Notes: a model not told the origin generated them from the letters alone. A stretch of DNA of 64,000 bases from Escherichia coli (GCF_003790525.1 NZ_CP033636.1); one strand, 5' to 3'. Shown: positions 3,105 through 46,318, counted from the stretch's first letter. Translations and numbers: made by a program.

Positions 3105-4043
3105 TCATTGAGACGCGTTACGAAAATCGTCAAAAGCTTCAGTTATTAGTAATGTGCGATCAGTTACTCTGTATCGGTCATTACTTTCGAGAGATACGTA
3201 AGTTGAATGCGAAGAATCACAGACAACACGCCCTCTTTTATTGATCAATCTTACTTCCATCATCACCGGCACATTGATAATTGAAGCAACATCGGTATAG
3301 AGGGATATGAGGGCATCATTGTCACAATATAACGCCCCGTTCCCATCAAATGTATCGTTAAACTTAATATATATATCTGGCATATTTGCCGGATAATCAT
3401 CAGTATTGAAATCAATGCATAACTTTAAGTCATCATTAATACGGCGATTAATCTTATGCTGCCCTACACGTACAAAGCCATGTTCAACAGCTTTGATAAT
3501 CCTTAAAGTTTCATTAAGACAATCTGTAATTCTTTTCTCGACAAATGAGATAAAGTCACCAAAGTCGGAATGAAAAAACTGTTTAAGTGCAAATTTCGCA
3601 ACTAACACTTTCCCATCCACCTTCATTTTATCGAGATAAAGATTTCTTATAGCATCAGTAGAAGAATTAGCTTTAGATAACTCTTCACAGTCATTAATAA
3701 TCATTGAAACAATATCAATAACTTTAACTGGGCTTAAAGTATTACTATATCCGCGAATATCAAACGTAAAAAATCCGAAATTCTTAAATACTCCAAGAAA
3801 ATAAATTATTTTTTGTTTCAAAAGAATAGAATCGGAGTAAGATGCGTTGTGCTTTATTAGCTCAGATATGTAGAGATCCAACATACAATTTAAATTATCG
3901 ATATCTACATCGTAATCAAAGGTTACTTTGTCGAACGAAGTATCAGATAATTGAACGGTTATATCGTCAGCGGAAACATTAAGGCCTAAATTTTGATAAA
4001 GAAAGGCACTAACAAATTCCACGTGGTCAGATTCTTTAAACAT
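3105..4043 (-). CDS. hypothetical protein, member B of tandem ~300-aa paralog family
   Basis: ORF track 312 aa; paralogous to 1977-2939 (see shared blocks). Confidence 0.6.
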   Translation of the reverse strand: MFKESDHVEFVSAFLYQNLGLNVSADDITVQLSDTSFDKVTFDYDVDIDNLNCMLDLYISELIKHNASYSDSILLKQKIIYFLGVFKNFGFFTFDIRGYSNTLSPVKVIDIVSMIINDCEELSKANSSTDAIRNLYLDKMKVDGKVLVAKFALKQFFHSDFGDFISFVEKRITDCLNETLRIIKAVEHGFVRVGQHKINRRINDDLKLCIDFNTDDYPANMPDIYIKFNDTFDGNGALYCDNDALISLYTDVASIINVPVMMEVRLINKRGRVVCDSSHSTYVSLESNDRYRVTDRTLLITEAFDDFRNASQ

Positions 4044-4061
4044 TTACACTACCTCATGACT

Positions 4062-4106
4062 AAAAAGGAAGTGCTTCCCACCGGGAAGCAGGTTCCCGGA
4101 TGGGTT
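4062..4106 (-). terminator. intergenic compound GC hairpin (putative terminator/attenuator)
   Basis: Nested inverted repeats CCCATCCGGGAA...TTCCCGGTGGG and GGAAG..CTTCC with A5 on plus strand = U5 after hairpin on minus transcript; lies between stop of 4110-5030 and start of 3105-4043. Confidence 0.4.
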
Positions 4107-4109
4107 AGA

Positions 4110-5030
4110 TTAATTATAAAAGAGTTCTTCAGAAGGTACATGCATTTCTGGTTTGAACTGTTTTAAGGAGTTGTTTATAGCTTTTCGATATAACCCTGAA
4201 GAGTGTGGCTTAAACATTTGATATTCCGTAACGAGCAGAGGAGACGTAAAGCATCCTAAGTTCACTAGTGAAATACTTGATGTTTCTTCACAAACATCTA
4301 ATTCAGCGTATATCCGCCTCTTCATTACCCTGCCTGCTAAATAGCGACGAACATGATTTATAAACTTGTCCGCATCTGATATAGAATTAACTATATAATC
4401 AGATGTGACTATCTGATTAGATACAGTTTCAGGTATAGCTTCGGCTATTATTTTTACGTTCATTTCATAATCAACACTATGGAAGCAAGCAAGAATTTGT
4501 GGCTTCGCGCTTTCTAAAATCTTTTCAAGAACAGAAAAAATCAGAGAGAACTCGTTTAAAATTCGCTTTTGTATAAGTCCATGTAGATGTTTTATGAAAG
4601 GAGAACCGTGTTCAACAAGGCCTAGTATAAGATCCTTAGAGGCCAAATCTGAGCGGTAATAAACGTATTCTAGATTATCCCGGTTAAATCCTTTGAAAAG
4701 CAAATCAGGCTGCTCTGAGACCAGTCGTAAATGAGTTGAAGCTATAGAAACTTCAAAACGAAAGTTCGCGAGATTTACAGGACCTGCTTTTAATGTAGCC
4801 GCTTCGGAAAAATAAATGAAAAGAGGATGCAAATCATCGTTACCACTGTAAAGATGGTCTGCACCCTTAAGATATTTCACCAAATGAGGTAGAAAAGATA
4901 TTACTGGAATATCAGCCACAAATCGAATATGCCGAAATGGTTTTGAATCCAAATATATATTTTCCACTACAGCGCCAACAAAACCCATTTTAACAAGAAT
5001 AGATTCAACTAACTTTTGTATAGCATTCAT
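4110..5030 (-). CDS. hypothetical protein (~300-aa family, divergent member)
   Basis: ORF track 306 aa; N-terminal motif KLVESILVKMG resembles N-termini of the 5099-6049 and 6105-6983 products. Confidence 0.55.
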   Translation of the reverse strand: MNAIQKLVESILVKMGFVGAVVENIYLDSKPFRHIRFVADIPVISFLPHLVKYLKGADHLYSGNDDLHPLFIYFSEAATLKAGPVNLANFRFEVSIASTHLRLVSEQPDLLFKGFNRDNLEYVYYRSDLASKDLILGLVEHGSPFIKHLHGLIQKRILNEFSLIFSVLEKILESAKPQILACFHSVDYEMNVKIIAEAIPETVSNQIVTSDYIVNSISDADKFINHVRRYLAGRVMKRRIYAELDVCEETSSISLVNLGCFTSPLLVTEYQMFKPHSSGLYRKAINNSLKQFKPEMHVPSEELFYN

Positions 5031-5098
5031 TTCAATACCCTCTTAATAGAGGGATTTCTCCCATAGGGAGAAATCCCTATGGGAGAAAATAATTTTAA

Positions 5099-6049
5099 TT
5101 AATAATTATAGCGAAGCGCATGTTCTTTTTCACTAAGATGGTTTTCATATTCCGACTTACCAGAACTTAAACACTCTTTGAAAAAGACCTTTGAAAAATT
5201 CTTCAAGTCACTTCGGTTATTAATTTCTTTGTCAGACATCAACTTAGCTGAGTGTGAGGTATCAACAGGCCCCAACCACCATTCATATTTAATATAAACA
5301 CAATTGGTTTGTGTATGTCCATTTAGAAATCGTTTTGCATTTCTAAGTATTTTTCTACAACCGTTAAGGTCTGAAAGTAAGATATCTGGAGCAATGAGCT
5401 CTTCCAGAATATGACCAGGTAAGCCTTTCCTAAAAAGCTCAACATCGTAACTACAATACCAGTCACGATAATTAAAAGCTTTAATAAGTCTTTCAGGTGT
5501 ATCCAAAGATATCTTATTCAGGATTTTTAATGCAAAGCATACAGCATCTTTTAACAACTCGTGCACCTCAACATTGATAAATGAGAAAAACGAGCTTAAT
5601 TCTTTCTCTAAGGAATTATACAACTTACCGTAAATATCCTGAGAAAAAAGATACTGCAATCTTTCTTTATTATAAGTGCAATTCGAAATTGAATAGACTT
5701 CTCCTCTTTCGATTTTGCACCCTTCCCTTAAAACTATAGGAAACCTCAAATGGTTAACAAAGAAAGAATGATTCTTTCTTTGCTTCAAAGCATCTAATTG
5801 AAATTTCGTAATTTCCTCCAGATTTGCATCTTCAAAACCTGGAAAGGGAATATCACAGAAACAAGAACTATATGCTTTTGCTGATTCATACATAAACTCC
5901 AGTGAAACATCAGCATCAAAAGACATACCAGAGAACATGCCCTGCCCATTGTCTAAAAATGTAATGTTTTTAACCTGTATTTTTTTATGTTGAACAACCA
6001 AAAAGGCATTAATGATTTTTTCGATAATTTTCATGTGATCCTCTCTCAA
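5099..6049 (-). CDS. hypothetical protein (~300-aa family, divergent member)
   Basis: ORF track 316 aa; N-terminal KIIEKIINAFLV motif; true start may be the internal Met at residue 6. Confidence 0.55.
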   Translation of the reverse strand: MREDHMKIIEKIINAFLVVQHKKIQVKNITFLDNGQGMFSGMSFDADVSLEFMYESAKAYSSCFCDIPFPGFEDANLEEITKFQLDALKQRKNHSFFVNHLRFPIVLREGCKIERGEVYSISNCTYNKERLQYLFSQDIYGKLYNSLEKELSSFFSFINVEVHELLKDAVCFALKILNKISLDTPERLIKAFNYRDWYCSYDVELFRKGLPGHILEELIAPDILLSDLNGCRKILRNAKRFLNGHTQTNCVYIKYEWWLGPVDTSHSAKLMSDKEINNRSDLKNFSKVFFKECLSSGKSEYENHLSEKEHALRYNY

Positions 6050-6050
6050 T

Positions 6051-6094
6051 AAAAAAAGGGATCACTCCCATATGGGGTGTGATCCCCACATGGG
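6051..6094 (-). terminator. intergenic compound GC hairpin (putative terminator/attenuator)
   Basis: GGGATCAC...GTGATCCC and CCCATATGGGG inverted repeats preceded by A7 on plus strand (U7 after hairpin on minus transcript). Confidence 0.4.
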
Positions 6095-6104
6095 TATAAT
6101 TTAA

Positions 6105-6983
6105 TTAAAAATCTGTAAGACCTAAATCTTTATTTCTACCACAAACTGTAGAAGATATAAGACGTTTTACTCGCTTTCGAGCACTTCGGCCTGACGTATC
6201 TTTCAAGTACATCGGTAATGACAATGATGAAATTTGATTACTTCGCTTATGATGGCAGACTATATAGCCCTGCCTCCACCCCGAACGCACAAACTCACGG
6301 ATGCGGTTAATATATGCCGAAGCTTGAGATTTTGTACTTATCGATTCAGAACACTTTAAGTTCTGTTCGATAGAGTAAAGCTCAGCCGCCATGAATTTCA
6401 CCTCATACAGCTCATCGCCATAACTTATAGTTTTCAACAGCTCTTCCTTTTCCCGAATGAAAAATACTTGCTGCATTCCAAGGATCAGGTCATAGGCCTC
6501 TCGAAAGAGGTCGATAAGCTTATTACGAACATAAATCATAAACTCCTCAAAGTGCTGAAGCCAGAAATAAGCCGCATTACTTATTTGTGAATTGTGAGAA
6601 CAAACAAGCCCTTTAGCAAGCTCGACCTCTTCCTCCCGAAAAGTAAAGTTACTTTTCTTAAACCGACTTTGTTCAAAAATGCTTTGATGCATTTCTATCC
6701 ATACAGAAACAAAACCGAGGGATTCAAATTCTTCGTTTAACAAATGTAAACTTTCGAAGATTTTCTGAATTTCGATCCCGATGTCATATGACAGTGGACA
6801 TTCTTTTATAGAATAAACATAACCGGGTAGGAAGTGAGATAAATGCTCAGTTCGCAAATATAAACTGAATTTAAGTTCTGTCAGTGGTTGTTTCAAAGAT
6901 AACTTAGATGATTCGCTTATATTTACTGGTTCAACGCCATTTCTAATCAAAATAGCTTTTACCAGGTCCGTAGCTAACTTCAT
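6105..6983 (-). CDS. hypothetical protein (~300-aa family, divergent member)
   Basis: ORF track 292 aa; N-terminal DLVKAILIRNGV motif shared with neighbours. Confidence 0.55.
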   Translation of the reverse strand: MKLATDLVKAILIRNGVEPVNISESSKLSLKQPLTELKFSLYLRTEHLSHFLPGYVYSIKECPLSYDIGIEIQKIFESLHLLNEEFESLGFVSVWIEMHQSIFEQSRFKKSNFTFREEEVELAKGLVCSHNSQISNAAYFWLQHFEEFMIYVRNKLIDLFREAYDLILGMQQVFFIREKEELLKTISYGDELYEVKFMAAELYSIEQNLKCSESISTKSQASAYINRIREFVRSGWRQGYIVCHHKRSNQISSLSLPMYLKDTSGRSARKRVKRLISSTVCGRNKDLGLTDF

Positions 6984-7061
6984 ACAGCCTCCATTCGTTA
7001 TTGAGGCCTCCCTGATGCAGGTTGGCCATCAGGGAAAATATGTAAATCAATTAGCAATCAA

Positions 7062-7583
7062 TCAGACCGTTGCCATGACATTGTCAATGTATCTGACAAG
7101 GGATGGGCGGTCGTCCTGTAAGGCAAAACGGCGAAGGTCATCAAGATTATACGCAGGAAGATAATCAGCGTAACCTCGAATACGAAGGTCCTCAACCACA
7201 ACTTTTATATACTCAAATCGTCCAAGATTCCCTTTTAATGGGGGTTTTCCTGGACTAGACAGCATATCGTCTGCTTGCTCCCATGTGATTTCTTTAGCTT
7301 CACCACTATGTAGATCAAGATGGACATATATGAATGACTTATAATCTCCACGGCAACGAAGATAATATTTCGGATAGAAATATTTGTCACAACGCAACAA
7401 ACACGTTCCTGAAGGACGAACTACGTACAACAGGTTTCTGTCATTTTCTAATATGCTATGTTTCAAAATCGTTATATCTATCTCATTATCATGCAGCAAA
7501 TAGCATGACGATGGTTCATTGACGATGCGCGATTTTATAACAGCAGCAAATTTATTAAAAACTTCGTTAATTTGAAAATTCAT
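7062..7583 (-). CDS. hypothetical protein (173 aa)
   Basis: ORF track; within the co-directional gene string; no motif recognised. Confidence 0.5.
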   Translation of the reverse strand: MNFQINEVFNKFAAVIKSRIVNEPSSCYLLHDNEIDITILKHSILENDRNLLYVVRPSGTCLLRCDKYFYPKYYLRCRGDYKSFIYVHLDLHSGEAKEITWEQADDMLSSPGKPPLKGNLGRFEYIKVVVEDLRIRGYADYLPAYNLDDLRRFALQDDRPSLVRYIDNVMATV

Positions 7584-7774
7584 TAAAATGCTCTCCGATG
7601 TAAAACGACGAGCATCACCATAACGGTAATACTCCCGTTATGGGTTTTAATAGTTTATGGAATAACCATGTCATACAACCGACCATAGCCAGTAGTACCG
7701 CACATTTATTTAACTGAGCAAGCATCTCAGCCGTGAAAAGACCTTAAAGGCAGGTAATTATCACGAAGGAAAGC

Positions 7775-7822
7775 GGTTATCTTATCAATACAATTTTAAA
7801 ATATAATATTGATAAGATAACC
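7775..7822. promoter_or_regulatory. perfect 16-bp inverted repeat (GGTTATCTTATCAATA / TATTGATAAGATAACC) with 16-nt AT-rich spacer; candidate operator or structured site
   Basis: Read directly from sequence at 7775-7790 and 7807-7822; sits between primase stop (7854) and the next gene start (7583). Confidence 0.35.
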
Positions 7823-7841
7823 CCCCCCGCAAAAAGCGGGG
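7823..7841 (-). terminator. putative intrinsic terminator after primase gene
   Basis: CCCCCGC-AAAAA-GCGGGGG hairpin directly downstream of the 7854-9158 stop codon on the minus strand. Confidence 0.45.
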
Positions 7842-7853
7842 GAGTTATCGTTG

Positions 7854-9158
7854 TTACAGCTGATTAAGACATTCAGGAGCCCAGTGAATCGGGAATCCAT
7901 CCTGCCCTGTTAACTGGAGAACATCGTTCCAGTCGATACCCTTTTTCCCATCAGGAATATCTTGTGCTGGTTCGAAGACTTCAATTGTCAGCTTTGATGC
8001 GGGATATCGTTTAGCCAAAAACTCAACCATGCGGCTTTGAAGTCGCTGAGCAGCTTCAATACCGGCACGAGTGCCTTGTGAGTTAGCAATATCCTTATCC
8101 GCCCAGATATAAAAGTTTATAGATTTTACATCCGGCGGAGGCAGTAAAAAATCAGGAACAGTAACGTTTTCAAGGCACCATGCGGAGCTGGCTGCCCAGC
8201 ATGGTGTTGAAGTCGCTTCTACAACAGAAAGCGCGTTCTCGATCCCTTCAGCCACTCCCAGTGTCCAGGTCGAACTACCTGAATCATAGTGAGGGTCAAA
8301 CAACTGAATTGAGCCACCTGTCATATCGGCAGGAGGCTTCATCATCAGCTTTGGATTTTCTACAGGTGCCTTATCACCATTTTTGTCTACGTATGTTCTA
8401 TGAATAGTCAGAGGCCGACCTCGGGTGTCACGATAGATCGCAATCATTCCCGGATAGATAATCGATTTCTGCTTATCTTTATCCCAATAGTAGATCCGGT
8501 TATTAAAGCCTAAATCCTTTGGTAAGTGACTCAGTAAGCGGGAGATCCCACGATTACGGAGGTACAAAGCAACAGGAGTATTAGGCTTGATTTCACCGGT
8601 ATAGTGATACATCACATCAAGTTTTCGCATTCGCTTTGCCACTTCCTCTCGGTCAAGAGTTTCTGTGGCACGAACTGCTGATTTATAGCGTCGTTCATTT
8701 TCAATGTCGGCGTCAGTTAACGGAGCATGCAGATCCATCCCGAAAAAATCTGAGAGAATCTTTTTGCAAGTCTGCGTTTTACTTAATTCATAATATTTCG
8801 CCAGAACATCAATTCCGTCGCAAAACTCATTTACCGGAAAGTCATTATGGATCGCACATCCGGTATAAAGGTCTTTTTGTCGGAAACGAAACTTCGATTT
8901 CCCTGCGCCAGTAAACGGGCAAGGAACCTGGCTCGGGGCTTTTGCACAAGCGTCTTTGAAAGCAGGTATTCTTTCGAATATATACTTCCAGCCAGACACT
9001 TCAGCAATTCGAGCATGAACGAGTTTAATAAAGTGTTCAGATACTTCCTGTGGATTACGACGAAGAGCCGGGGATGCATAAGTCATGATGATCTCTCTTA
9101 TCTGGCATTGTGAGTTTCTCAATGCCTTCTGCGGTGCAGAAGACAGGGAGAAACCCAC
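7854..9158 (-). CDS. DNA primase (zinc-ribbon CHC2-like motif plus Toprim domain)
   Basis: ORF track 434 aa; CPFTGAGKSKFRF...C...H motif typical of primase zinc-binding domains (P4 alpha / plasmid primase type) and Toprim-like GVAEGIENALSV...DKD segment. Confidence 0.65.
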   Translation of the reverse strand: MGFSLSSAPQKALRNSQCQIREIIMTYASPALRRNPQEVSEHFIKLVHARIAEVSGWKYIFERIPAFKDACAKAPSQVPCPFTGAGKSKFRFRQKDLYTGCAIHNDFPVNEFCDGIDVLAKYYELSKTQTCKKILSDFFGMDLHAPLTDADIENERRYKSAVRATETLDREEVAKRMRKLDVMYHYTGEIKPNTPVALYLRNRGISRLLSHLPKDLGFNNRIYYWDKDKQKSIIYPGMIAIYRDTRGRPLTIHRTYVDKNGDKAPVENPKLMMKPPADMTGGSIQLFDPHYDSGSSTWTLGVAEGIENALSVVEATSTPCWAASSAWCLENVTVPDFLLPPPDVKSINFYIWADKDIANSQGTRAGIEAAQRLQSRMVEFLAKRYPASKLTIEVFEPAQDIPDGKKGIDWNDVLQLTGQDGFPIHWAPECLNQL

Positions 9159-38550: not shown

Positions 38551-39800
38551 GCGTTAACTCCTTGCTTAGCTGAAAAACTTTTTATTTCATTTATAAATTG
38601 TTGATATACCTGTAATACAGATTCTTCTGCGACATCAAGTTGCTTTGCGGAACAAAGTTCCTCTGATTTTTTGATATCAAGCACTGTACGCCCTTTGGAA
38701 GCAGCTGCCTTAAATGCTTCAGAATTTTTTATGTTAGCGGACATCAAAAGGTCCTGAACAGTTCTGATTAATTTATCCAAAACTATTCTTTCATATGGAC
38801 TTTTGTCATCAACATTGACAGCAAGAACTTTGAACCATTTTAAATTATCGCCCTTACTTGGTGATTGTTTAAACCTTTCACTTATTGTAAGCATGAAGTC
38901 TGTAGTAGAGGCGTAATCATATTCACGTGGTGACACTGCGACAAGAATCCCATCGGCCGCTTCGTCAGCAGCCCAGATCAAAGGTGAATCTTCAGGTGGA
39001 GTGTCTATAATAATCAAATCATAGTTCTGCTTCAGTACCGGTAAGATAACTTCCTTGAAACGTAGTAACAAAGACGTTCGTTCTTCTCTAGAACATTGCC
39101 AGTATTTATCTTTAAAACGAGCATCTGTCGGAAATGCCGTTATCACGTCCAAGTTTGGCAGATGCGTTGAAAAAGGCATATTAGTGATGATTTCTTCTTC
39201 AGAGAATCCTGAATCTAAATATTTTTTATACTCAGAATTTTCTTCATAAATTCCAAGGATTGCATCAATTGCTGTAAGGAAGACATCATCTTCTGAGACA
39301 CTTTGAATCATGCTGCTTCCAATCGAACCTTGTGGGTCCCATTCGATCATTAATACACGTGCATTCAGTTGTAGATCTAAAGCAGCTGCTACTGCTAAAG
39401 CTACAGATGTAGTGCTTTTCCCTGTACCGCCTTTATGATTCTGAGTAACAATAGCTCTGCTAAAGTAATGATCGCGGTACTTGGGATAACCCAGGGCATC
39501 CATTATTTTTTGAACATCCCAGCGGGTGTAAAGATGATTTTTGTTTTGATAAATAGGTGCACCAACAACTTCTTTTTCTTCTAAGTCCGAAAGTATTTTA
39601 TTGAACGTTACTCGTGACTTCCCAAAAAAATCAGAGAGATTTTTTTTATTTAAACAGTGGTTGTAGATCAGTCTATCAACACCATCAACACTATCATCAG
39701 AAACAGATACTCTTGATGAAGCCATCAGAGATTCCTTAAGAGAAATCTGCTCGCTTTTCATGCGCTGACCAACGAGGGCGATCTTTTCAAGTAAATTCAT
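38547..39800 (-). CDS. parA: ParA/SopA-family partition ATPase (type Ia, long N-terminal extension)
   Basis: ORF track 417 aa; deviant Walker A KGGTGKSTT, ~110-aa N-terminal extension typical of SopA/P1 ParA-type proteins. Confidence 0.85.
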   Translation of the reverse strand: MNLLEKIALVGQRMKSEQISLKESLMASSRVSVSDDSVDGVDRLIYNHCLNKKNLSDFFGKSRVTFNKILSDLEEKEVVGAPIYQNKNHLYTRWDVQKIMDALGYPKYRDHYFSRAIVTQNHKGGTGKSTTSVALAVAAALDLQLNARVLMIEWDPQGSIGSSMIQSVSEDDVFLTAIDAILGIYEENSEYKKYLDSGFSEEEIITNMPFSTHLPNLDVITAFPTDARFKDKYWQCSREERTSLLLRFKEVILPVLKQNYDLIIIDTPPEDSPLIWAADEAADGILVAVSPREYDYASTTDFMLTISERFKQSPSKGDNLKWFKVLAVNVDDKSPYERIVLDKLIRTVQDLLMSANIKNSEAFKAAASKGRTVLDIKKSEELCSAKQLDVAEESVLQVYQQFINEIKSFSAKQGVNA

Positions 39801-39830: not shown

Positions 39831-39868
39831 TTTTACGCATATATGTAAACTTTACGCATAATGCGTCC
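39831..39868. promoter_or_regulatory. candidate parA operator (TTTACGCATA direct repeats plus ACGCATAATGCGT palindrome)
   Basis: Read from sequence 30-70 nt upstream of parA start; type Ia ParA proteins autoregulate through operators at this position. Confidence 0.3.
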
Positions 39869-40199
39869 ATTTCATTGTTATACGTACAATTCTATCCTTT
39901 GTTTCAATCCTAAGCTAATGTTTGTTTACTTTTTTATGATTTTTTGTGAGCTTAACTTGCAGATGAGAGCTCAGACTCTCTAGTCCATACCTAATGCTCA
40001 TTCTTTTTAAACCACGATTCTTGTCGACTTCTCTACGCTTTGACGTTATGAGCTCCATTAATGAATCTTCACGCCTACCCTATTTCTTGCTTAGACCCTA
40101 AAATCTATCTCACCGGTGTGCTGATTTACGTTTCCTAACTGTGAATCGTTGTCGTCAGTCCAGTCTAAAGATATGAGGTGTTAATCTCTTGAGTAGGCC

Positions 40200-43100
40200 C
40201 ACTACGAATTATGGGAGCAGAGTTAGCAACCTAGCCCAGAACTGAAACCCAACTTCAGGAGGCAACCCCAGTGTGGCGATTAAGGGGGTTAAATCTGCCA
40301 GCGGCTGACAGTGTCCTAGCTGCTGCTCAGTCACACCACGCCCTGATTAAATCTCCTGCCCGGTATTGTAAGGACCGAAAAAAGCCCGTGCATTTGTGTC
40401 GGCAGACCGGCATGAAGGAATATGACGTTAATCTGTATCAGCAGGCACTTTTCGCATGATGGGAGCAAGTGATAGCAACCCCGCCCAGAACGGAAGGCCA
40501 GCATCAGGACAAAACCCAAGTTTGGCGATTAAGGGGGTTAAATTTGCAAGCGGATGACAGTGCCCCAGCTGCTGCTCAGTCACACCACGCCCTGAGTAAA
40601 TCTCTCGCCAGGTCTTGTTATGACCGAAAATAGCCCAAGCACTGGTGTCGGCAGACCGGCATACAGGAATATGACGTTAATCTGTATCAGCAGATACATT
40701 TCGCATTATGGGAGCAAGAGATAGCAACCCAGCCCAGAACTGAAGGCCAGCATGAGGACAGAACACCAGTTTGGCGATTAAGGGAGTTAAATATGCAAGC
40801 TGCTGATAGTGCCCCAGCTCCTGCTCAGTAACACCACGCCCTGATAAAATCTCCTGCCCGGTAATGTAATGACCGAAAAAAGGCCGTGCACTGGTGTCGG
40901 CAGACCGGCACGCAGGAAAATGACGTTAATCTGTATTAACAGACACATTTCGCATTAGGGGAGCAAGTGATAGCCACCCAGCCCAGAACTGAAGGCCAGC
41001 ATCAGGACAGTACCCCAGTTTGGCGATTAAGGGGGTTAAATCCGCCAGTGGCTGTAAGTGCCCGAGCGGTGTATAAGAAATATTTCCCGAAGGACAATCT
41101 TTCGCTCGTACGATGAATAAAGTGTTCAACCCGGGAGCGGGGATCACTTAACCTGCTTAGCCTAAATCTTACGTCATTCTCTAAACGGAGTTTAAGCTTA
41201 ATGGTCCTTAGAAAGTTAAAAGGACTACCCATAATGACGTCTTGAGATGGCGAATAAAGGGTTTTAATCTGCCAGCGGCTGACAGTGCCCCAGCTTCTGC
41301 TCAGTCACACCACGCCTGATTAAATCTCCCGCCAGGTCTTATTATGACCGAAAATAGTCCCCGTGCACTAGAGTCGTAAGACCGGCATACAGGAATGAAG
41401 CTTAAATCTTTATCAGGTTGCAAGGTTCGCATCATGGGAGCAAGGGCCTTGAACTGTAGGTTAACATCAGAAAATCCCAGATTGGCGATTAAGGGGGTTA
41501 AATCTGACAGCGACTGAAAGTGCCTTCAGATGCTGCTCAGGTATATTACAACCTGAAAAAATCAAGCGTCTGTTCATGCGAATATCGAAAAAAGCTATGC
41601 ACCAGTTTCGGCAGACCGGCATGGAGTAATGAGACGTTAATCTGTATCAGCTGGCGCATTTCGTATCATGGGAGCAAGTGTTAGCAACCCTGCCCAGGAC
41701 GGAAGGACACTATCAGGACTGATCCCAGTTTGGAGATTAAGGGGGTTAAATCTGCCAGTGGCTGACAGAGCCTTCTGATGCTGCTCAGACATACTATGCA
41801 ACGATAAAATCACCCGTCCGTCCTTGTGATTATCGGAAAAAGCCATGCACCGGAGTCGGCAGATCGGTATGCAGTAATGTGACTTTAATCTGTATCAGCA
41901 GGCGCAATGGGAGCAAGTGTTAGCAACCGAGCCCAGGACGGAAGGACACTATCAGGACTGAACCCCAGTGTGGCGATTAAGGGGGTTAAATCTGCAAGCG
42001 GATAACAGTGCCCCAGCTGCTGCTCAGTCACACCACGCCCTGATTAAATCTCTCGCCAGGTCTTGTTAGGACCGAAAATAGCCCGAGCACTGGTGTCGGC
42101 AGACCGGCATACAGGAATACGACGTTAATTTGTATCAGCAGGTACATTTCGCATTATGGGAGCAAGTGATAGCAACCCAGCTCAGAACTGAAGGCCTGCA
42201 TGAGGACAGAACACCAGTTTGGCGATTAAGGGGGTTAAATCTGACAGCGGCTGACAGTGCCTTCAGATGCTGCTCAGGCATACTACTCTCCCTGATATAA
42301 TCTCCCATATGTTCTTGAGATCGTCGGAAATCGCCCATGCACCGGTGTCGGCAGACCGGTATGCAGTAATGTGATTTTAATCTGTATCAGCAGGCACATT
42401 TCGTATCATGGGAGTAAGTGTTAGCAAACCGAACCCCGCCCAGCACGGAAGGTCAATATCAGACCAGAATCCCAGTTTGGCGATTAAGGGGGTTAAATCT
42501 GCAAGCTGCTGACAGTGCCCCAGCTTCTGCTCAGTCACACCACGCCCTGATAAAATCTCCTGCCCGGTAATGTGATGACCGAAAAAAGCCCGTGCACTGG
42601 TGTTGGCAGACCGGCACGCAGGAATATGACGTTAATCTGTATCAGCAGTTACATTTCGCATTATGGGAGGAAGTGATAGCCACCCAGCCCAGAACTGAAG
42701 GCCAGCATCAGGACAGTACCCCAGTTTGGCGATTAAGGGGGTTAAATCCGGCAGCGGCAGTAAGTGCCCGTGCTGTGTTAAAGGAATATTTCCCTAAGGA
42801 CAATCTTCCGATCGGCCTTTTGTATAAAGTGGTCACCCCGGGAGCGGGGATCACTTTACCTGCTTAGCCTAAATCTTACGTCAATCACTATCCGGAATTT
42901 TAGCTTAATGGTCCTGAGCAAGTTAAAAGGGGTACCCCTAATGACGTCCCCAGATGGCGATAAAGGAGTTAATTCCGCCTTCGGCTTACAGTGCCGCAGC
43001 TGCTGCTAAGGAACACCACGCCCTGATTAAATCTCCCGCCTGGCCTTGTGATGACCAAAAATTGTCCGTGCACTGGCGTCGTAAGACCGGCATACAGGAA

Positions 43101-43210
43101 TGAGGCGTTAATCTTTATTAGGTGGAAGGATTCGCATCATGGGAGCAAGGGCCCTAGAACTGTAGGCTAACATTAGAAAATCACAGATTGGCGATAAAGG
43201 GGGTTAAATA
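40200..43210. repeat. tandem array of about 13 direct repeats of ~245-260 bp with higher-order organisation (two blocks of A-type units each ending in a diverged B and C unit)
   Basis: Unit starts marked by TGGCGATTAAGGGGGTTAAATCTGC at 40264, 40523, 40772, 41021, then B-type 41021-41260 and C-type 41262-41480, A-type units resume 41483-42720, B-type again 42722-42950 and C-type 42953-43205; shared blocks GTGTCGGCAGACCGGCAT and ATGACGTTAATCTGTATCAGCAGG in A units. Confidence 0.85.
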
Positions 43211-43575
43211 AGTTAAAAGTCTTCGGTGAGCAAATTGGATAAATTTTCATAAACCAAAGCGTTAATATTAAACTTTTAGAAGAATGATTAAAGGATATTA
43301 AGTTTTGTATGCAATATGACACCAGTGATCTGTTTTCACTAATAATGCCGCGCTCCTTTGATTACCTTTGGTAAACAAAAATGTAATTTACGTGAATTTC
43401 ATCTTATAAAGTCAGTATTGATGTTATAAATTTTGTTTACTTAATGCGTACACAACCTAAATGCGATTTGTAATTATGTCACTGTTTTTAAGCCATATTA
43501 ATTATAAAACCAAAATTTGCAGCACAGTGATGAACTCATTAAGTCATAACCTCATTTGTTTACTTAAGGCATACA

Positions 43576-43608
43576 ATAAAAAACCAGATTCTTATGAGAC
43601 ATCTGGTT
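43576..43608 (-). terminator. intrinsic terminator after traC
   Basis: AACCAGAT...ATCTGGTT hairpin with A6 on plus strand (U-run after hairpin on minus transcript) 30 nt downstream of the traC stop (43637). Confidence 0.55.
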
Positions 43609-43636
43609 TAATTGTTTTTGCTTGAAGATATTTACT

Positions 43637-46318
43637 CTACGCGGCCAAACCCGCTGCTACTTCTTGAGCATAGAGAATTTCTATTGCCTCGCCATAGCTA
43701 CAATTCTCGCGGCTTTGAATTTCCCATAATTTACTCCTGTCAGCACTATCCGTAGTAAAACAAAGCTCCATTTTCCGGTCTACGTATAACCGACAGATCT
43801 CTTGGAAGTTTTCGAACCTGACTAACATCTCTGAAAACACCTTTTTGACTGTACGAATATTTTTCATTCGTTCATATTCTGCATCTGAAGTAGAAAAATA
43901 TTTATTAGCCTTCATTGCTTCAATGCTTTCTTTTTCTTGTTTCATGATTATCTTCCAAGGCGAGTTAGCAGTCAGGGCCCGGCCAACAGAAGAAGTAAAA
44001 TAATCTTCAAACGACTGTGTGATACAGATGCCAGCGCAGTTTGTTTTCCTGAACCTACGCCATGCCGCTTCGAGGAAGGAAGAGAAGAATTGGTTTGATT
44101 GATTTCCGGCACCTGATGAATTATCAGGACGAATGTACTCCCAAGCTTCATCTAGGATGAACAAGCGACGACGCCCATCTTTTTTGATGAACATTGCATG
44201 CTGAGCAGCCTGAATGATAGACATTAAAACAACTGTCTGAAGGTGGGGGGTGCCTTTTAGCTCCTCCAGTTCCAAAACAATAAATCTGCTGTCGAAGTTG
44301 ATTGGAGGCAACGTATCGGTAAACCGGTGCCCATAAATTCCACCTTCGCACCATGCTCCGAGTTGCTCCCCAATATCCTTTATACGTTTGTCTTCATGCT
44401 TCTTGCAACGCAGAGCAAAGCCGGTTATTGAACCGGTCCGACCTGATTTTCTGGATTCCTGGTACTCTTCTGCAATAAGCTGAAGCATCACTGATTGTTG
44501 ATAATCATCGATAAGGCCTTTCTCTGAAGCCATAATTTTTAGCTGATTCAGAACCATTATGGTCTGAGCAACTTTGTCTTTTTCTGCATCGTTTGAAGTT
44601 GATTCACCGGTAAATTCAGGTGCTTCGTTAAATACATCGTCGTTAACAGTGATGTCAGTTAGGAAGGCAAAGGGATTTAGGGTGAAGTCAGGGGTTTTAC
44701 CGAAATCAATAAATTGACTGTTTGTATATTGTTCCGCAATCCCCTGGTAAGAACGCCCCACGTCCACTACAAAAACTTGAGCACCATCAGGATCATCATC
44801 TGGGTATTCGTTTTCTAAAAAATGCTTAAATGTTGAGCGATAATGAACGAGGTTATTAGATCGCGGTCCAGCTCCAAGATAGTTATTGATTAGATATGCT
44901 GTCCAGAATGACTTGCCTGCACCTGACGTTGCACCAATAACCATGTTATAGCTTGCAGAAGTCTTGAAAATATCAAGTCCCATGAGTTGACCTTCACGAG
45001 AAACTAAACTCAGTACTGGTCTATCTGTATTACCTTTCCAGGGCCCAAAGATCGGCGTCATATGAGCCGCTCCGGTGTTGCTCACTACTTCGGATCGGTC
45101 AAGGTCGAAAATTGTCTTTGGGTCATTGCACATTGGCAGACATGACATAAATGACGGGAAAACGATAAAGGAATCATCTGCTACTTTGACCCGGCTTTCG
45201 AGGTAAAAGGATTTGAGATCGTTAGCTGCTGTCTGCACAGAATTGGCATTACTACCCATAACAGTGAAAGTAAGATACCCTCTTAAAAGCTTTGCGCCAT
45301 CCTCAAGCTCGCGAGTTACGGCCATGTAGTCATTATCCATATCCCGCAGGCGAGGGCAGAATGTGACAACTGAAGGTATACTTGCCTGTTTATTAGTGAT
45401 TGCTTTGTAGCGGACGTTTTCTTTTGACAACTTGAGCGGATCGGCAAACTGAACAGTCTGAGTGATCATAAATGGGCTGAAAATTGTCTTACGTCCATGC
45501 ATCCAGTTAACTACTAACTCATACATACAACCGAAATTGACGTATTCAGGAAACTTTACAACGGAAAGTTGTTTGAAGTAACGATGCTCAGATTCGTCGT
45601 CACTTTGTGTGACTGATGAGAAATGATTTTCTGTGACTGTATACTTACGGCCGGGAACGTTAACTTGTTCATTAAGCCTTTTCATAGTGTTAACGTCTAT
45701 AAAACCTTCAGCCCACCGAGAGTTCTTTCCGGGGTTTACGACCTTATCTATACAATAGAGCCAGTTTTCTGCATCGACCTTAAACGGATGCAGTCCAATC
45801 GTAATTAACTTACTTACAAGTTCAGAGTAAAGTGAATCGATACGCGAATGTTCCAGCTCGGTAGGAAGGGCAGACTGTAAAGGAATCGATAGCGAGATCC
45901 ATACCTGAAAATCCCTCAACATAAGGTTATCATGATCAGGTTTTAAAGGCTTATGCATACTTCTGTCGTAGTAGTCCAACTGATAACCATTAAGCAGATC
46001 TGCTTTAAGCTTATCGTTCCCAGTCATACGCCCACCTCGCACAGCTGACCAAGCACTAAGCTGTAAAGTCAAGTCTGGCAATGCAGTCAGAGATATTTGA
46101 CAGACAGTATCTGTAGGAAAATCCATTTTGAACATTTCAGCAAGAACATCTTGCTGATTATCAAAAACTCCAGGTGATGGATTACAGATAAACATAAACC
46201 CTAATCTGTTGCCATCAATCAAAAAATAGTGAGTCCCTGCTAATTGATCGTAAACAGGGATAAACCCACCTAATTGATGGCGATTTAAACCGCTATTGTA
46301 ATTATTGATAGCTTCCAT
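43637..46318 (-). CDS. traC: TraC (VirB4-like) conjugative transfer ATPase
   Basis: ORF track 893 aa; Walker A GATSGAGKS, Walker B-like FILDEAW; size and position after traV typical of F-type TraC. Confidence 0.8.
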   Translation of the reverse strand: MEAINNYNSGLNRHQLGGFIPVYDQLAGTHYFLIDGNRLGFMFICNPSPGVFDNQQDVLAEMFKMDFPTDTVCQISLTALPDLTLQLSAWSAVRGGRMTGNDKLKADLLNGYQLDYYDRSMHKPLKPDHDNLMLRDFQVWISLSIPLQSALPTELEHSRIDSLYSELVSKLITIGLHPFKVDAENWLYCIDKVVNPGKNSRWAEGFIDVNTMKRLNEQVNVPGRKYTVTENHFSSVTQSDDESEHRYFKQLSVVKFPEYVNFGCMYELVVNWMHGRKTIFSPFMITQTVQFADPLKLSKENVRYKAITNKQASIPSVVTFCPRLRDMDNDYMAVTRELEDGAKLLRGYLTFTVMGSNANSVQTAANDLKSFYLESRVKVADDSFIVFPSFMSCLPMCNDPKTIFDLDRSEVVSNTGAAHMTPIFGPWKGNTDRPVLSLVSREGQLMGLDIFKTSASYNMVIGATSGAGKSFWTAYLINNYLGAGPRSNNLVHYRSTFKHFLENEYPDDDPDGAQVFVVDVGRSYQGIAEQYTNSQFIDFGKTPDFTLNPFAFLTDITVNDDVFNEAPEFTGESTSNDAEKDKVAQTIMVLNQLKIMASEKGLIDDYQQSVMLQLIAEEYQESRKSGRTGSITGFALRCKKHEDKRIKDIGEQLGAWCEGGIYGHRFTDTLPPINFDSRFIVLELEELKGTPHLQTVVLMSIIQAAQHAMFIKKDGRRRLFILDEAWEYIRPDNSSGAGNQSNQFFSSFLEAAWRRFRKTNCAGICITQSFEDYFTSSVGRALTANSPWKIIMKQEKESIEAMKANKYFSTSDAEYERMKNIRTVKKVFSEMLVRFENFQEICRLYVDRKMELCFTTDSADRSKLWEIQSRENCSYGEAIEILYAQEVAAGLAA

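What the first reader, a model, noticed from the sequence alone, without database searches (positions are those of the whole stretch)
40200..43210. Three-kilobase higher-order tandem array of ~250-bp repeats upstream of parA
About 13 units follow one another. Four to five A-type units are followed by a diverged B and then a C unit, and the whole A-B-C block occurs twice, indicating duplication of a higher-order unit. Units keep long identical blocks (TGGCGATTAAGGGGGTTAAATCTGC, GTGTCGGCAGACCGGCAT, ATGACGTTAATCTGTATCAGCAGG) but differ at scattered positions. Stop codons move between units, so protein coding is unlikely. Candidate roles are a large centromere for the adjacent ParAB, an incompatibility determinant, or an array of small RNA genes. 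The unit is far longer than a typical centromere repeat.
Basis: seen in the sequence. Interest (0 to 1): 0.8.

Follow-up and report, generated by a model that had tools for sequence, protein, structure and literature searches.

The report
IncHI2 plasmid centromere repeat array
The 3-kb repeat array is most likely the segregation site (centromere) of a common IncHI2 resistance plasmid: thirteen copies of a 21-bp ParB-binding box, unusual only in being spaced about 249 bp apart instead of about 54 bp as in the sister IncHI1 plasmids.

Summary
The array is real: 12 full units of about 249 bp plus a partial unit at the parA end and a lone box at the trhC end, at 40180-43213, with a duplicated higher-order block. 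The window is IncHI2 plasmid backbone, and the array fills the unannotated gap between trhC and parA-parB. It is present in about 1,127 sequenced plasmids.

One 21-bp block, ATTTAACCCCCTTAATCGCCA (parA sense), is by far the least variable part of the unit. It is the only sequence shared with IncHI1 plasmids, which carry 28 copies 52-54 bp apart in the same gap. More distant ParAB relatives carry a co-varying box beside parAB in unrelated backbones.

The ParB belongs to the phage P1 ParB family. The box has the layout of P1's minimal parS: an inverted box-A pair abutting box B (TCGCCA).

RNA and coding readings fail: no Rfam hit, no fold excess, no covariation, no unit promoters or terminators, and stops in all frames.

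Verdict: a tandem-repeat parS centromere for ParAB, and probably an incompatibility determinant. This is an ordinary function with an unusually long, diverged unit. ParB binding is inferred, not shown. The role of the 228-bp spacers is unexplained. Moderate-low interest.

The parts
40180..43213 (-). Whole tandem array: 12 full units of 220-258 bp (mostly 249), a partial unit at the parA-proximal end and a lone box at the trhC-proximal end. The boxes read in the parA sense on the minus strand.
40275..40294 (-). Box copy (unit U1), ATTTAACCCCCTTAATCGCC, 0 mismatches. Proposed ParB site: inverted arms ATTTAA/TTAAT around C5, abutting TCGCCA.
40524..40543 (-). Box copy (U2), 0 mismatches
40773..40792 (-). 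Box copy (U3), 1 mismatch
41022..41041 (-). Box copy (U4, B-type unit, whose spacer is replaced by unrelated sequence at 41045-41245), 0 mismatches
41249..41269 (-). Degenerate box (U5, C-type unit), GGCGAATAAAGGGTTTTAATC on the + strand
41484..41503 (-). Box copy (U6), 0 mismatches
41732..41751 (-). Box copy (U7), 1 mismatch, in box B
41972..41991 (-). Box copy (U8), 0 mismatches
42221..42240 (-). Box copy (U9), 0 mismatches
42479..42498 (-). Box copy (U10), 0 mismatches
42728..42747 (-). Box copy (U11, B'-type unit), 0 mismatches
42956..42975 (-). Degenerate box (U12, C'-type unit), GGCGATAAAGGAGTTAATTC on the + strand
43190..43209 (-). Terminal box (1 mismatch) at the trhC-proximal end of the array
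39832..39866 (-). parA promoter/operator-like repeats: TTTACGCATA twice, 19 bp apart, including the palindrome ACGCATAATGCGT. Conserved upstream of parA in IncHI1 and in a Citrobacter plasmid. Proposed ParA autoregulation site, separate from the centromere.
38547..39800 (-). parA, 417 aa Walker-type partition ATPase, long type Ia form
37546..38550 (-). parB, 334 aa, P1 ParB family (helix-turn-helix domain plus C-terminal dimer/DNA-binding domain)
43574..43610 (-). Hairpin followed by a T run, downstream of trhC (43637-46318). A likely terminator that keeps transfer-operon transcription out of the array.
   Evidence: (inverted repeat I1) and reading; not flagged by the scan because the loop is 11 nt

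Best explanation
The array is the cis-acting centromere (parS array) of the type Ia ParA-ParB partition system of IncHI2 plasmids.

Each unit carries one 21-bp ParB site, ATTTAA-CCCCC-TTAAT/TCGCCA. This is an imperfect inverted pair of 'box A'-like arms directly abutting a 'box B' hexamer, as in the minimal parS of phage P1.

ParB dimers (P1 family) bind the 11-13 sites and nucleate a large partition complex over about 3 kb. ParA ATPase then positions that complex on the nucleoid so that each daughter cell receives a plasmid. ParA represses its own promoter at separate ~20-bp operator repeats next to parA.

Because the array titrates ParB, it should also act as a partition-incompatibility determinant, including towards IncHI1 plasmids, which carry the identical box.

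The ~228-bp remainder of each unit is best read as spacer DNA that was amplified together with the box by unequal recombination, and duplicated again as a higher-order block.

Shown here: the anatomy, the conservation pattern, co-occurrence with parAB, and ParB family membership. Inferred: ParB binding, centromere activity and incompatibility.
For: 1. The window is IncHI2 backbone. The array fills the unannotated trhC-parA gap in about 1,127 plasmid records.

2. Within the units, the 21 columns ATTTAACCCCCTTAATCGCCA have pairwise diversity 0.017-0.024. The mean is 0.19 and the next-best block is 0.08-0.10.

3. Plasmids whose ParA is 89% identical carry the same box in tandem upstream of parA with quite different units. 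The intact IncHI1 plasmid pKP14812-MCR-1 has 28 copies 52-54 bp apart in the same trhC-parA gap. A Citrobacter plasmid has 7 copies 56 bp apart in a different gene context. Nothing but the box and the parA promoter region is alignable between the IncHI1 and IncHI2 gaps.

4. The box co-varies with ParB:
- ParB 72% identical (IncHI1): same box.
- ParB 48% identical (Klebsiella IncHI1B/FIB plasmid): about 27 boxes AAAACAACCCCGTTGTTCGCAG, 61-66 bp apart, upstream of parA and downstream of parB.
- Proteus and Vibrio plasmids with more distant ParA relatives (64% and 46% identical): 2-3 single boxes AAAACAACCCCCTTGTT flanking parAB in unrelated backbones.

5. The ParB matches the solved P1 ParB DNA-binding fragment (1ZX4, 2NTZ) at E 4e-16 over residues 150-330. 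It also matches Pfam PF08775 and is 28% identical to P1 ParB over 84% of its length.

6. The annotated P1 parS reads ATTTCAA-G-GTGAAAT/TCGCCA, that is A2, A3, B2. This is the same layout as the IncHI box, with an identical box B.

7. The box occurs nowhere else in the 64-kb window; chance expectation is 0.

8. A separate conserved operator-like repeat lies next to parA, as expected for a type Ia system.
Against: There are no binding, stability or incompatibility data for this array in anything I could read. Lawley and Taylor 2003, Sherburne 2000 and Gilmour 2004 are not held.

In P1 and F the centromere lies downstream of parB or sopB, not upstream of parA.

No IHF consensus lies in the array, whereas P1 parS depends on IHF.

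The explanation does not account for the 249-bp unit or for the secondary conserved blocks in the spacers (diversity about 0.08-0.10).

One IncHI2 record, pSH111_227, has only 3 boxes. Either 13 copies are dispensable or that assembly collapsed.
Confidence: 0.85

Rival explanations
1. Composite element. The array is the centromere, but the 228-bp spacers carry a second function. Candidates are auxiliary ParB half-sites (GATTAAC and GATTTWATC recur once each per unit in the same orientation as the box), sites for a second protein, or a spacing that tunes ParB loading or limits recombination.
For: Secondary blocks in the spacer are about twice as conserved as the unit average: CTGCTGATACAGATTAACGTC, CCGGTCTGCCGAC and CTGAGCAGCAGC. 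GATT(T)AA-like motifs persist even in the diverged C units. The total array length of about 3 kb and 13 boxes is kept in two IncHI2 lineages despite a different unit order. P1 parS also uses extra box A and box B copies.
Against: Orthologous units of the two IncHI2 lineages differ by 5-6%. That is no less than third codon positions (1.8-3.9%) or unique intergenic DNA (3.5-4.2%) nearby, so spacers show no visible purifying selection. IncHI1 and the Citrobacter plasmid use the same box with wholly different 31-36-bp spacers. B units replace the spacer entirely and keep a perfect box.
Confidence: 0.15
2. Array of small RNA genes, or one long structured non-coding RNA, with each unit giving a ~250-nt transcript.
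For: The array is G+C-rich (about 50%) between A+T-rich flanks. It is non-coding, with conserved blocks.
Against: No Rfam match, even at E up to 1. Promoter-like sites are rarer than in shuffles, and no unit carries a promoter or terminator. Single-unit fold z-scores are -0.44 and +0.62. The RNAalifold consensus of 16 units has a covariation term of 0 with only 1 compensatory pair, and z is -0.85 and +0.7 against column shuffles on the two strands. B inserts have z from -1.2 to +0.3. IncHI1 keeps only the 21-bp box.
Confidence: 0.03
3. Decayed protein-coding repeat: a remnant of a gene for a repeat protein with 83-residue modules, since 249 is 3 x 83.
For: 249 is divisible by 3, and one frame of the consensus unit is open. 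IncHI-type plasmids encode large Ig-like repeat proteins, some next to parAB in relatives.
Against: Every real unit has stops in every frame: means of 2-5 per unit, and 37-69 stops per ~1,010 codons in all six frames, about the random expectation. Variability shows no third-position periodicity (0.108, 0.106, 0.125). Unit lengths include 248, 242 and 220. An open frame in the consensus has roughly a 1-in-10 chance over six frames.
Confidence: 0.02
4. Replication-control iterons, that is, Rep-binding incompatibility repeats like P1 incA, rather than a partition site.
For: The repeats are tandem and directly oriented, and such arrays cause incompatibility (the P1 incA annotation shows the type).
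Against: The box travels with parAB, not with a replicon, across unrelated backbones: IncHI1, a Citrobacter MOBH plasmid, IncHI1B/FIB, Proteus and a 92-kb Vibrio plasmid. It co-varies with ParB. Its layout matches a ParB site. No rep gene adjoins it.
Confidence: 0.03

Closest known systems
Par1 (type I ParA-ParB) locus of the IncHI1 plasmid R27/pHCM1 family
   Same: Orthologous genes: ParA 89% and ParB 72% identical. Same position between trhC and parA in transfer region Tra2. Identical 21-bp box in direct tandem orientation, and the same operator-like repeats at the parA promoter. Papers I could read state that the R27 type I locus is the major stability determinant (PMC4489591).
   Different: IncHI1 has 28 boxes at 52-54 bp in two blocks over 2.3 kb. 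IncHI2 has 13 boxes at about 249 bp over 3.0 kb, with diverged units (73-96% alike) and a duplicated higher-order block. The spacers are unrelated. From memory only, and not checked here: the 2003 R27 paper noted direct repeats near the par genes as candidate cis sites.
parS of phage/plasmid P1 (type Ia ParABS)
   Same: ParB of the same family, with both DNA-binding domains. The site layout is an inverted box-A pair abutting box B, and box B is identical (TCGCCA). ParA is a long type Ia ATPase with a separate operator at its promoter.
   Different: P1 has a single 83-bp parS downstream of parB, built around an IHF bend with extra A and B boxes. Here there are 13 tandem copies upstream of parA, with no IHF consensus. 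The box-A arms differ (ATTTAA versus ATTTCAA) and are separated by C5 instead of one base.
sopC of the F plasmid (12 tandem 43-bp repeats, each with a SopB-binding inverted repeat). Recalled from established knowledge, not fetched here.
   Same: A tandem direct-repeat centromere with about a dozen copies, each holding one inverted-repeat protein site. It acts as an incompatibility determinant (incD).
   Different: The unit is 43 bp versus 249 bp. The repeats are nearly identical versus 73-96% alike. It lies downstream of sopB. SopB is a different ParB lineage.

Membership tests
Type Ia ParABS partition locus (P1/F class) | Long Walker-type ParA (about 400 aa) encoded immediately upstream of parB in one operon | tested here: met
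   417-aa ParA with ParA/RepA/SopA family hits; its end overlaps the start of the 334-aa parB
Type Ia ParABS partition locus (P1/F class) | ParB with a helix-turn-helix domain and a C-terminal dimerisation/DNA-binding domain of the P1 ParB type | tested here: met
   PDB 1ZX4/2NTZ at E 4e-16 over residues 150-330; Pfam PF08775 at E 9e-11; 28% identity to P1 ParB over 84% of the length
Type Ia ParABS partition locus (P1/F class) | Cis-acting centromere bound specifically by ParB | not testable with these tools
   Only indirect evidence: box conservation, co-occurrence and co-variation with parAB
Type Ia ParABS partition locus (P1/F class) | ParA operator at the par promoter, separate from the centromere | tested here: inconclusive
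   Conserved ~20-bp repeats and a palindrome lie 30-70 bp upstream of parA in IncHI2, IncHI1 and the Citrobacter plasmid. Binding was not tested.
P1-type parS | Box A heptamers in inverted orientation adjoining the box B hexamer TCGCCA | tested here: met
   ATTTAA-CCCCC-TTAAT/TCGCCA compared with the annotated P1 site ATTTCAA-G-GTGAAAT/TCGCCA. The arms are imperfect and the central spacing differs.
P1-type parS | IHF site bending the DNA between two arms of boxes | tested here: not met
   No WATCAANNNNTTR match anywhere in 40180-43213
P1-type parS | Single site downstream of parB | tested here: not met
   13 tandem copies upstream of parA and none downstream of parB in the window
Tandem-repeat centromere (F sopC type) | Direct tandem repeats, each with one inverted-repeat binding site, next to the partition operon | tested here: met
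   The unit length of 249 bp lies outside the 43-66 bp seen in F (from memory) and in the relatives examined here.
Small RNA gene array / structured RNA | Own promoter and terminator per unit, fold more stable than shuffles, compensatory base changes | tested here: not met

The most novel reading that the evidence does not exclude
The 249-bp unit is not box plus junk. It may be a composite centromere module in which the full ParB site works together with two box-A-like half-sites (GATTAAC, GATTTWATC) and other conserved blocks, possibly bound by a second plasmid or host protein. That would give a 3-kb higher-order partition complex with an architecture unlike any described plasmid centromere. 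The five-fold change in box spacing between IncHI1 and IncHI2 would then be adaptive, for example by tuning ParB loading or spreading, or by limiting recombination through unit divergence.
Probability: 0.15. Interest if true: 0.55.

Novelty: new member of a known kind. Interest (0 to 1): 0.33.

Why it matters
IncHI2 plasmids are major carriers of mcr, ESBL and carbapenemase genes in Salmonella, E. coli and Enterobacter. Their main stability locus has a 3-kb cis site that genome annotation leaves blank in every record examined here, apart from a few spurious 'hypothetical protein' calls.

Pinning the site to a 21-bp P1-like box gives four things:
- a simple annotation rule;
- the prediction that IncHI1 and IncHI2 should show partition incompatibility, because the boxes are identical;
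- a target for plasmid-curing approaches;
- a natural series (single boxes; arrays at 52-66 bp; arrays at 249 bp) for asking how the number and spacing of ParB loading sites affect partition-complex assembly.

The function itself is ordinary.

Tried and rejected
RNA readings:
- Rfam at gathering and at E up to 1: nothing.
- Promoter and terminator scan: fewer promoter-like sites than in shuffles, and none per unit.
- RNA folding of units and of the B inserts on both strands: no excess stability.
- Consensus folding of 16 units: no covariation.

Coding reading:
- Six-frame stops and codon-position variability: not coding.

Origin of the unit:
- Phage database search with the array: no match.
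- Search for the origin of the A-type spacer and the B insert in all plasmids: found only in the same IncHI2 records.
- Alignment of the IncHI1 and IncHI2 gaps beyond the box: only the parA promoter region aligns.
- Scan of 100,044 species genomes for the box: only IncHI2-type arrays in four Enterobacteriaceae, plus single hits in four unrelated assemblies (three MAGs and a 381-bp Streptomyces contig) at about the number chance predicts. No new spacing class.

P1-type feature:
- IHF consensus in the array: none.

Literature:
- The primary R27 and R478 papers are not held.
- Seven full-text searches found no accessible description of the IncHI2 array.

Full report
**What is there**

Tandem Repeats Finder reports a single array at 40180-42769: period 249, 10.6 copies, 70% matches.

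Reading the sequence and anchoring on the most conserved block extends the array to 43213. It has 12 full units of 220-258 bp, a partial unit at the parA end, and a lone box at the trhC end.

Eleven boxes match ATTTAACCCCCTTAATCGCC (minus strand) with 0-1 mismatch. Shuffles of the window give none, and the rest of the 64-kb window has none. Two further boxes, in the C-type units, are degenerate.

The unit order is U1 U2 U3 B C U6 U7 U8 U9 U10 B' C'.
- B units keep the box but have an unrelated ~200-bp spacer.
- U2-U3-B-C and U8+U10-B'-C' are 90% identical, so a higher-order block was duplicated.
- Units are otherwise 73-96% alike.

The array is G+C-rich, about 50% against 32-42% in the flanks.

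**Context**

The 3,031 bp recur in 1,127 plasmid records: 346 at 99% identity or more, and 971 typed as conjugative. The hosts are mainly Escherichia, Salmonella and Enterobacter. The records I opened are typed IncHI2A.

On the minus strand the order is:
- trhC, a TraC/VirB4-type ATPase, at 43637-46318;
- a hairpin followed by a T run;
- about 360 bp of A+T-rich DNA;
- the array;
- about 280 bp of spacer;
- operator-like repeats;
- parA (38547-39800) and parB (37546-38550);
- further on, parM.

The gap carries no feature in most records. A few have an IS insertion or a short 'hypothetical protein' call.

**The key comparison**

I collected plasmids with ParA relatives at several distances and looked upstream of parA in each.
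- pHCM1 and an intact IncHI1 plasmid, pKP14812-MCR-1 (ParA 89% identical, same trhC-parA gap of 3.2 kb), carry 28 copies of the very same box at 52-54-bp spacing.
- A Citrobacter plasmid with an equally close ParA, in a different gene neighbourhood, has 7 copies at 56 bp.
- Between the IncHI1 and IncHI2 gaps, only the 21-25-bp box and the parA promoter region align.
- A Klebsiella IncHI1B/FIB plasmid (ParA 64%, ParB 48% identical) has about 27 copies of a related but distinct box, AAAACAACCCCGTTGTTCGCAG, at 61-66 bp on both sides of parAB.
- Proteus and Vibrio plasmids have 2-3 single boxes, AAAACAACCCCCTTGTT(CGCCA), flanking parAB.

So the box follows parAB across unrelated backbones and changes as ParB changes.

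Inside the IncHI2 units, the lowest-diversity 21-column window is exactly the shared box. Its pairwise diversity is 0.017-0.024, against a mean of 0.19 and 0.08-0.10 for the next-best block.

**What the box looks like**

The ParB is a P1-family protein:
- It matches the solved P1 ParB DNA-binding fragment (1ZX4, 2NTZ) at E 4e-16 across both the helix-turn-helix and C-terminal domains.
- It matches Pfam PF08775.
- It is 28% identical to P1 ParB.

I read P1 parS from the annotated P1 genome. Its core is ATTTCAA-G-GTGAAAT overlapping TCGCCA, that is box A2, inverted box A3, and box B2.

The IncHI box, ATTTAA-CCCCC-TTAAT overlapping TCGCCA, has the same layout and an identical box B. The more distant relatives have perfect 6-7-bp inverted arms around a C run, followed by TCGCCA or TCGCAG.

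This resemblance is at the level of sequence only. Binding is inferred.

**Rivals tested**

*RNA.*
- No Rfam match, even at E up to 1.
- No per-unit promoter or terminator.
- Fold z-scores of -0.44 and +0.62 for single units.
- A covariation term of 0 and only one compensatory pair in a 16-unit alignment, with z of -0.85 and +0.7 against column shuffles.
- B inserts are equally unremarkable.

*Coding.*
- Although 249 = 3 x 83 and one consensus frame is open, every real unit has stops in every frame.
- Variability has no codon periodicity.

*Replication iterons.*
- The box tracks parAB, not a replicon.

**What remains unexplained**

I cannot explain why IncHI2 spaces the same box about five times further apart than IncHI1.
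- The spacers and the B insert occur only in IncHI2-type plasmids.
- Between two IncHI2 lineages, orthologous units differ by 5-6%. That is at least as much as third codon positions (1.8-3.9%) or unique intergenic DNA (3.5-4.2%), so I see no purifying selection on the spacers as a whole.
- Some blocks are about twice as conserved as average. Two GATT(T)AA-like motifs recur per unit in the box's orientation. Auxiliary sites cannot be excluded.
- Both lineages keep 13 boxes in 3.84 kb despite a different unit order.
- Variants with 16 boxes (pET1.1-IncH) and 3 boxes (pSH111_227, possibly an assembly collapse) exist.

**Comparison with what is known**

This is the IncHI2 counterpart of the R27 (IncHI1) type I partition locus. 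Accessible papers describe that locus as the major stability determinant.

The element combines a P1-type ParB and box with an F sopC-like tandem arrangement, placed upstream of parA. It lacks an IHF site.

I could not read the primary R27 and R478 papers, so I cannot say whether the repeats were already assigned. My recollection that direct repeats were noted for R27 is unverified.

**Verdict**

This is a real, ancient and well-conserved tandem array whose function is most likely the plasmid centromere (confidence about 0.85). I class it as a new member, or a long-unit variant, of a known kind. Interest is moderate-low.

Noticed in passing
window 39832-39866: Operator-like repeats just upstream of parA: TTTACGCATA twice, 19 bp apart, including the palindrome ACGCATAATGCGT. 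They are conserved in IncHI1 and in a Citrobacter plasmid, and are the likely ParA autoregulation site.
   Followed up: partly
window array units; alignment A2 columns ~121-131 and ~203-213: Each 249-bp unit holds two further GATT(T)AA..TC motifs (GATTAACGTC and GATTTWATC) in the same orientation as the main box. They are among the better conserved columns and persist in the C-type units. They could be auxiliary ParB half-sites.
   Followed up: partly
window 43574-43610 (minus strand): A 7-bp stem with an 11-nt loop and a T run, 27 nt after the trhC stop. It is a probable terminator that the consensus scan missed because of its long loop.
   Followed up: no
L012 (pSH111_227) 4272-5656; L014 (pET1.1-IncH) 4501-9094: Array copy number varies between IncHI2 plasmids: 3 boxes in a 1.4-kb gap versus 16 boxes in a 4.6-kb gap (13 in the window). 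The extra three units in L014 look like a duplication of U8-U9-U10. The short form may be an assembly collapse.
   Followed up: partly
L009 (IncHI1 pKP14812-MCR-1) 3940-6238: The IncHI1 array is split into a 4-box block and a 23-box block by about 800 bp of non-repeat DNA. Its units alternate between 52 and 54 bp, so Tandem Repeats Finder reports a best period of 106. In pHCM1 (L002) the array is cut down and interrupted by IS1 and IS421.
   Followed up: no
L010 (Klebsiella IncHI1B/FIB plasmid) 6150-6204: A run of AGGGC pentamers (AGGGCAGGGCAGGGC...) lies between the box array and parA. Large Ig-like repeat protein genes flank parAB in this plasmid and in the Raoultella plasmid L004.
   Followed up: no
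window 43443-43450: The 8-mer TAATGCGT of the parA operator palindrome recurs at the trhC-proximal edge of the gap, within a repeated TTTGTTTACTTAA(T/G)GC motif (43432 and 43555). This may be chance.
   Followed up: no
window 41136-41160 and 42838-42866 (B-type units): The B inserts contain CACTTAACCTGCTTAGCC on the + strand, a weak resemblance to the box in the opposite orientation. It is not significant on its own.
   Followed up: no
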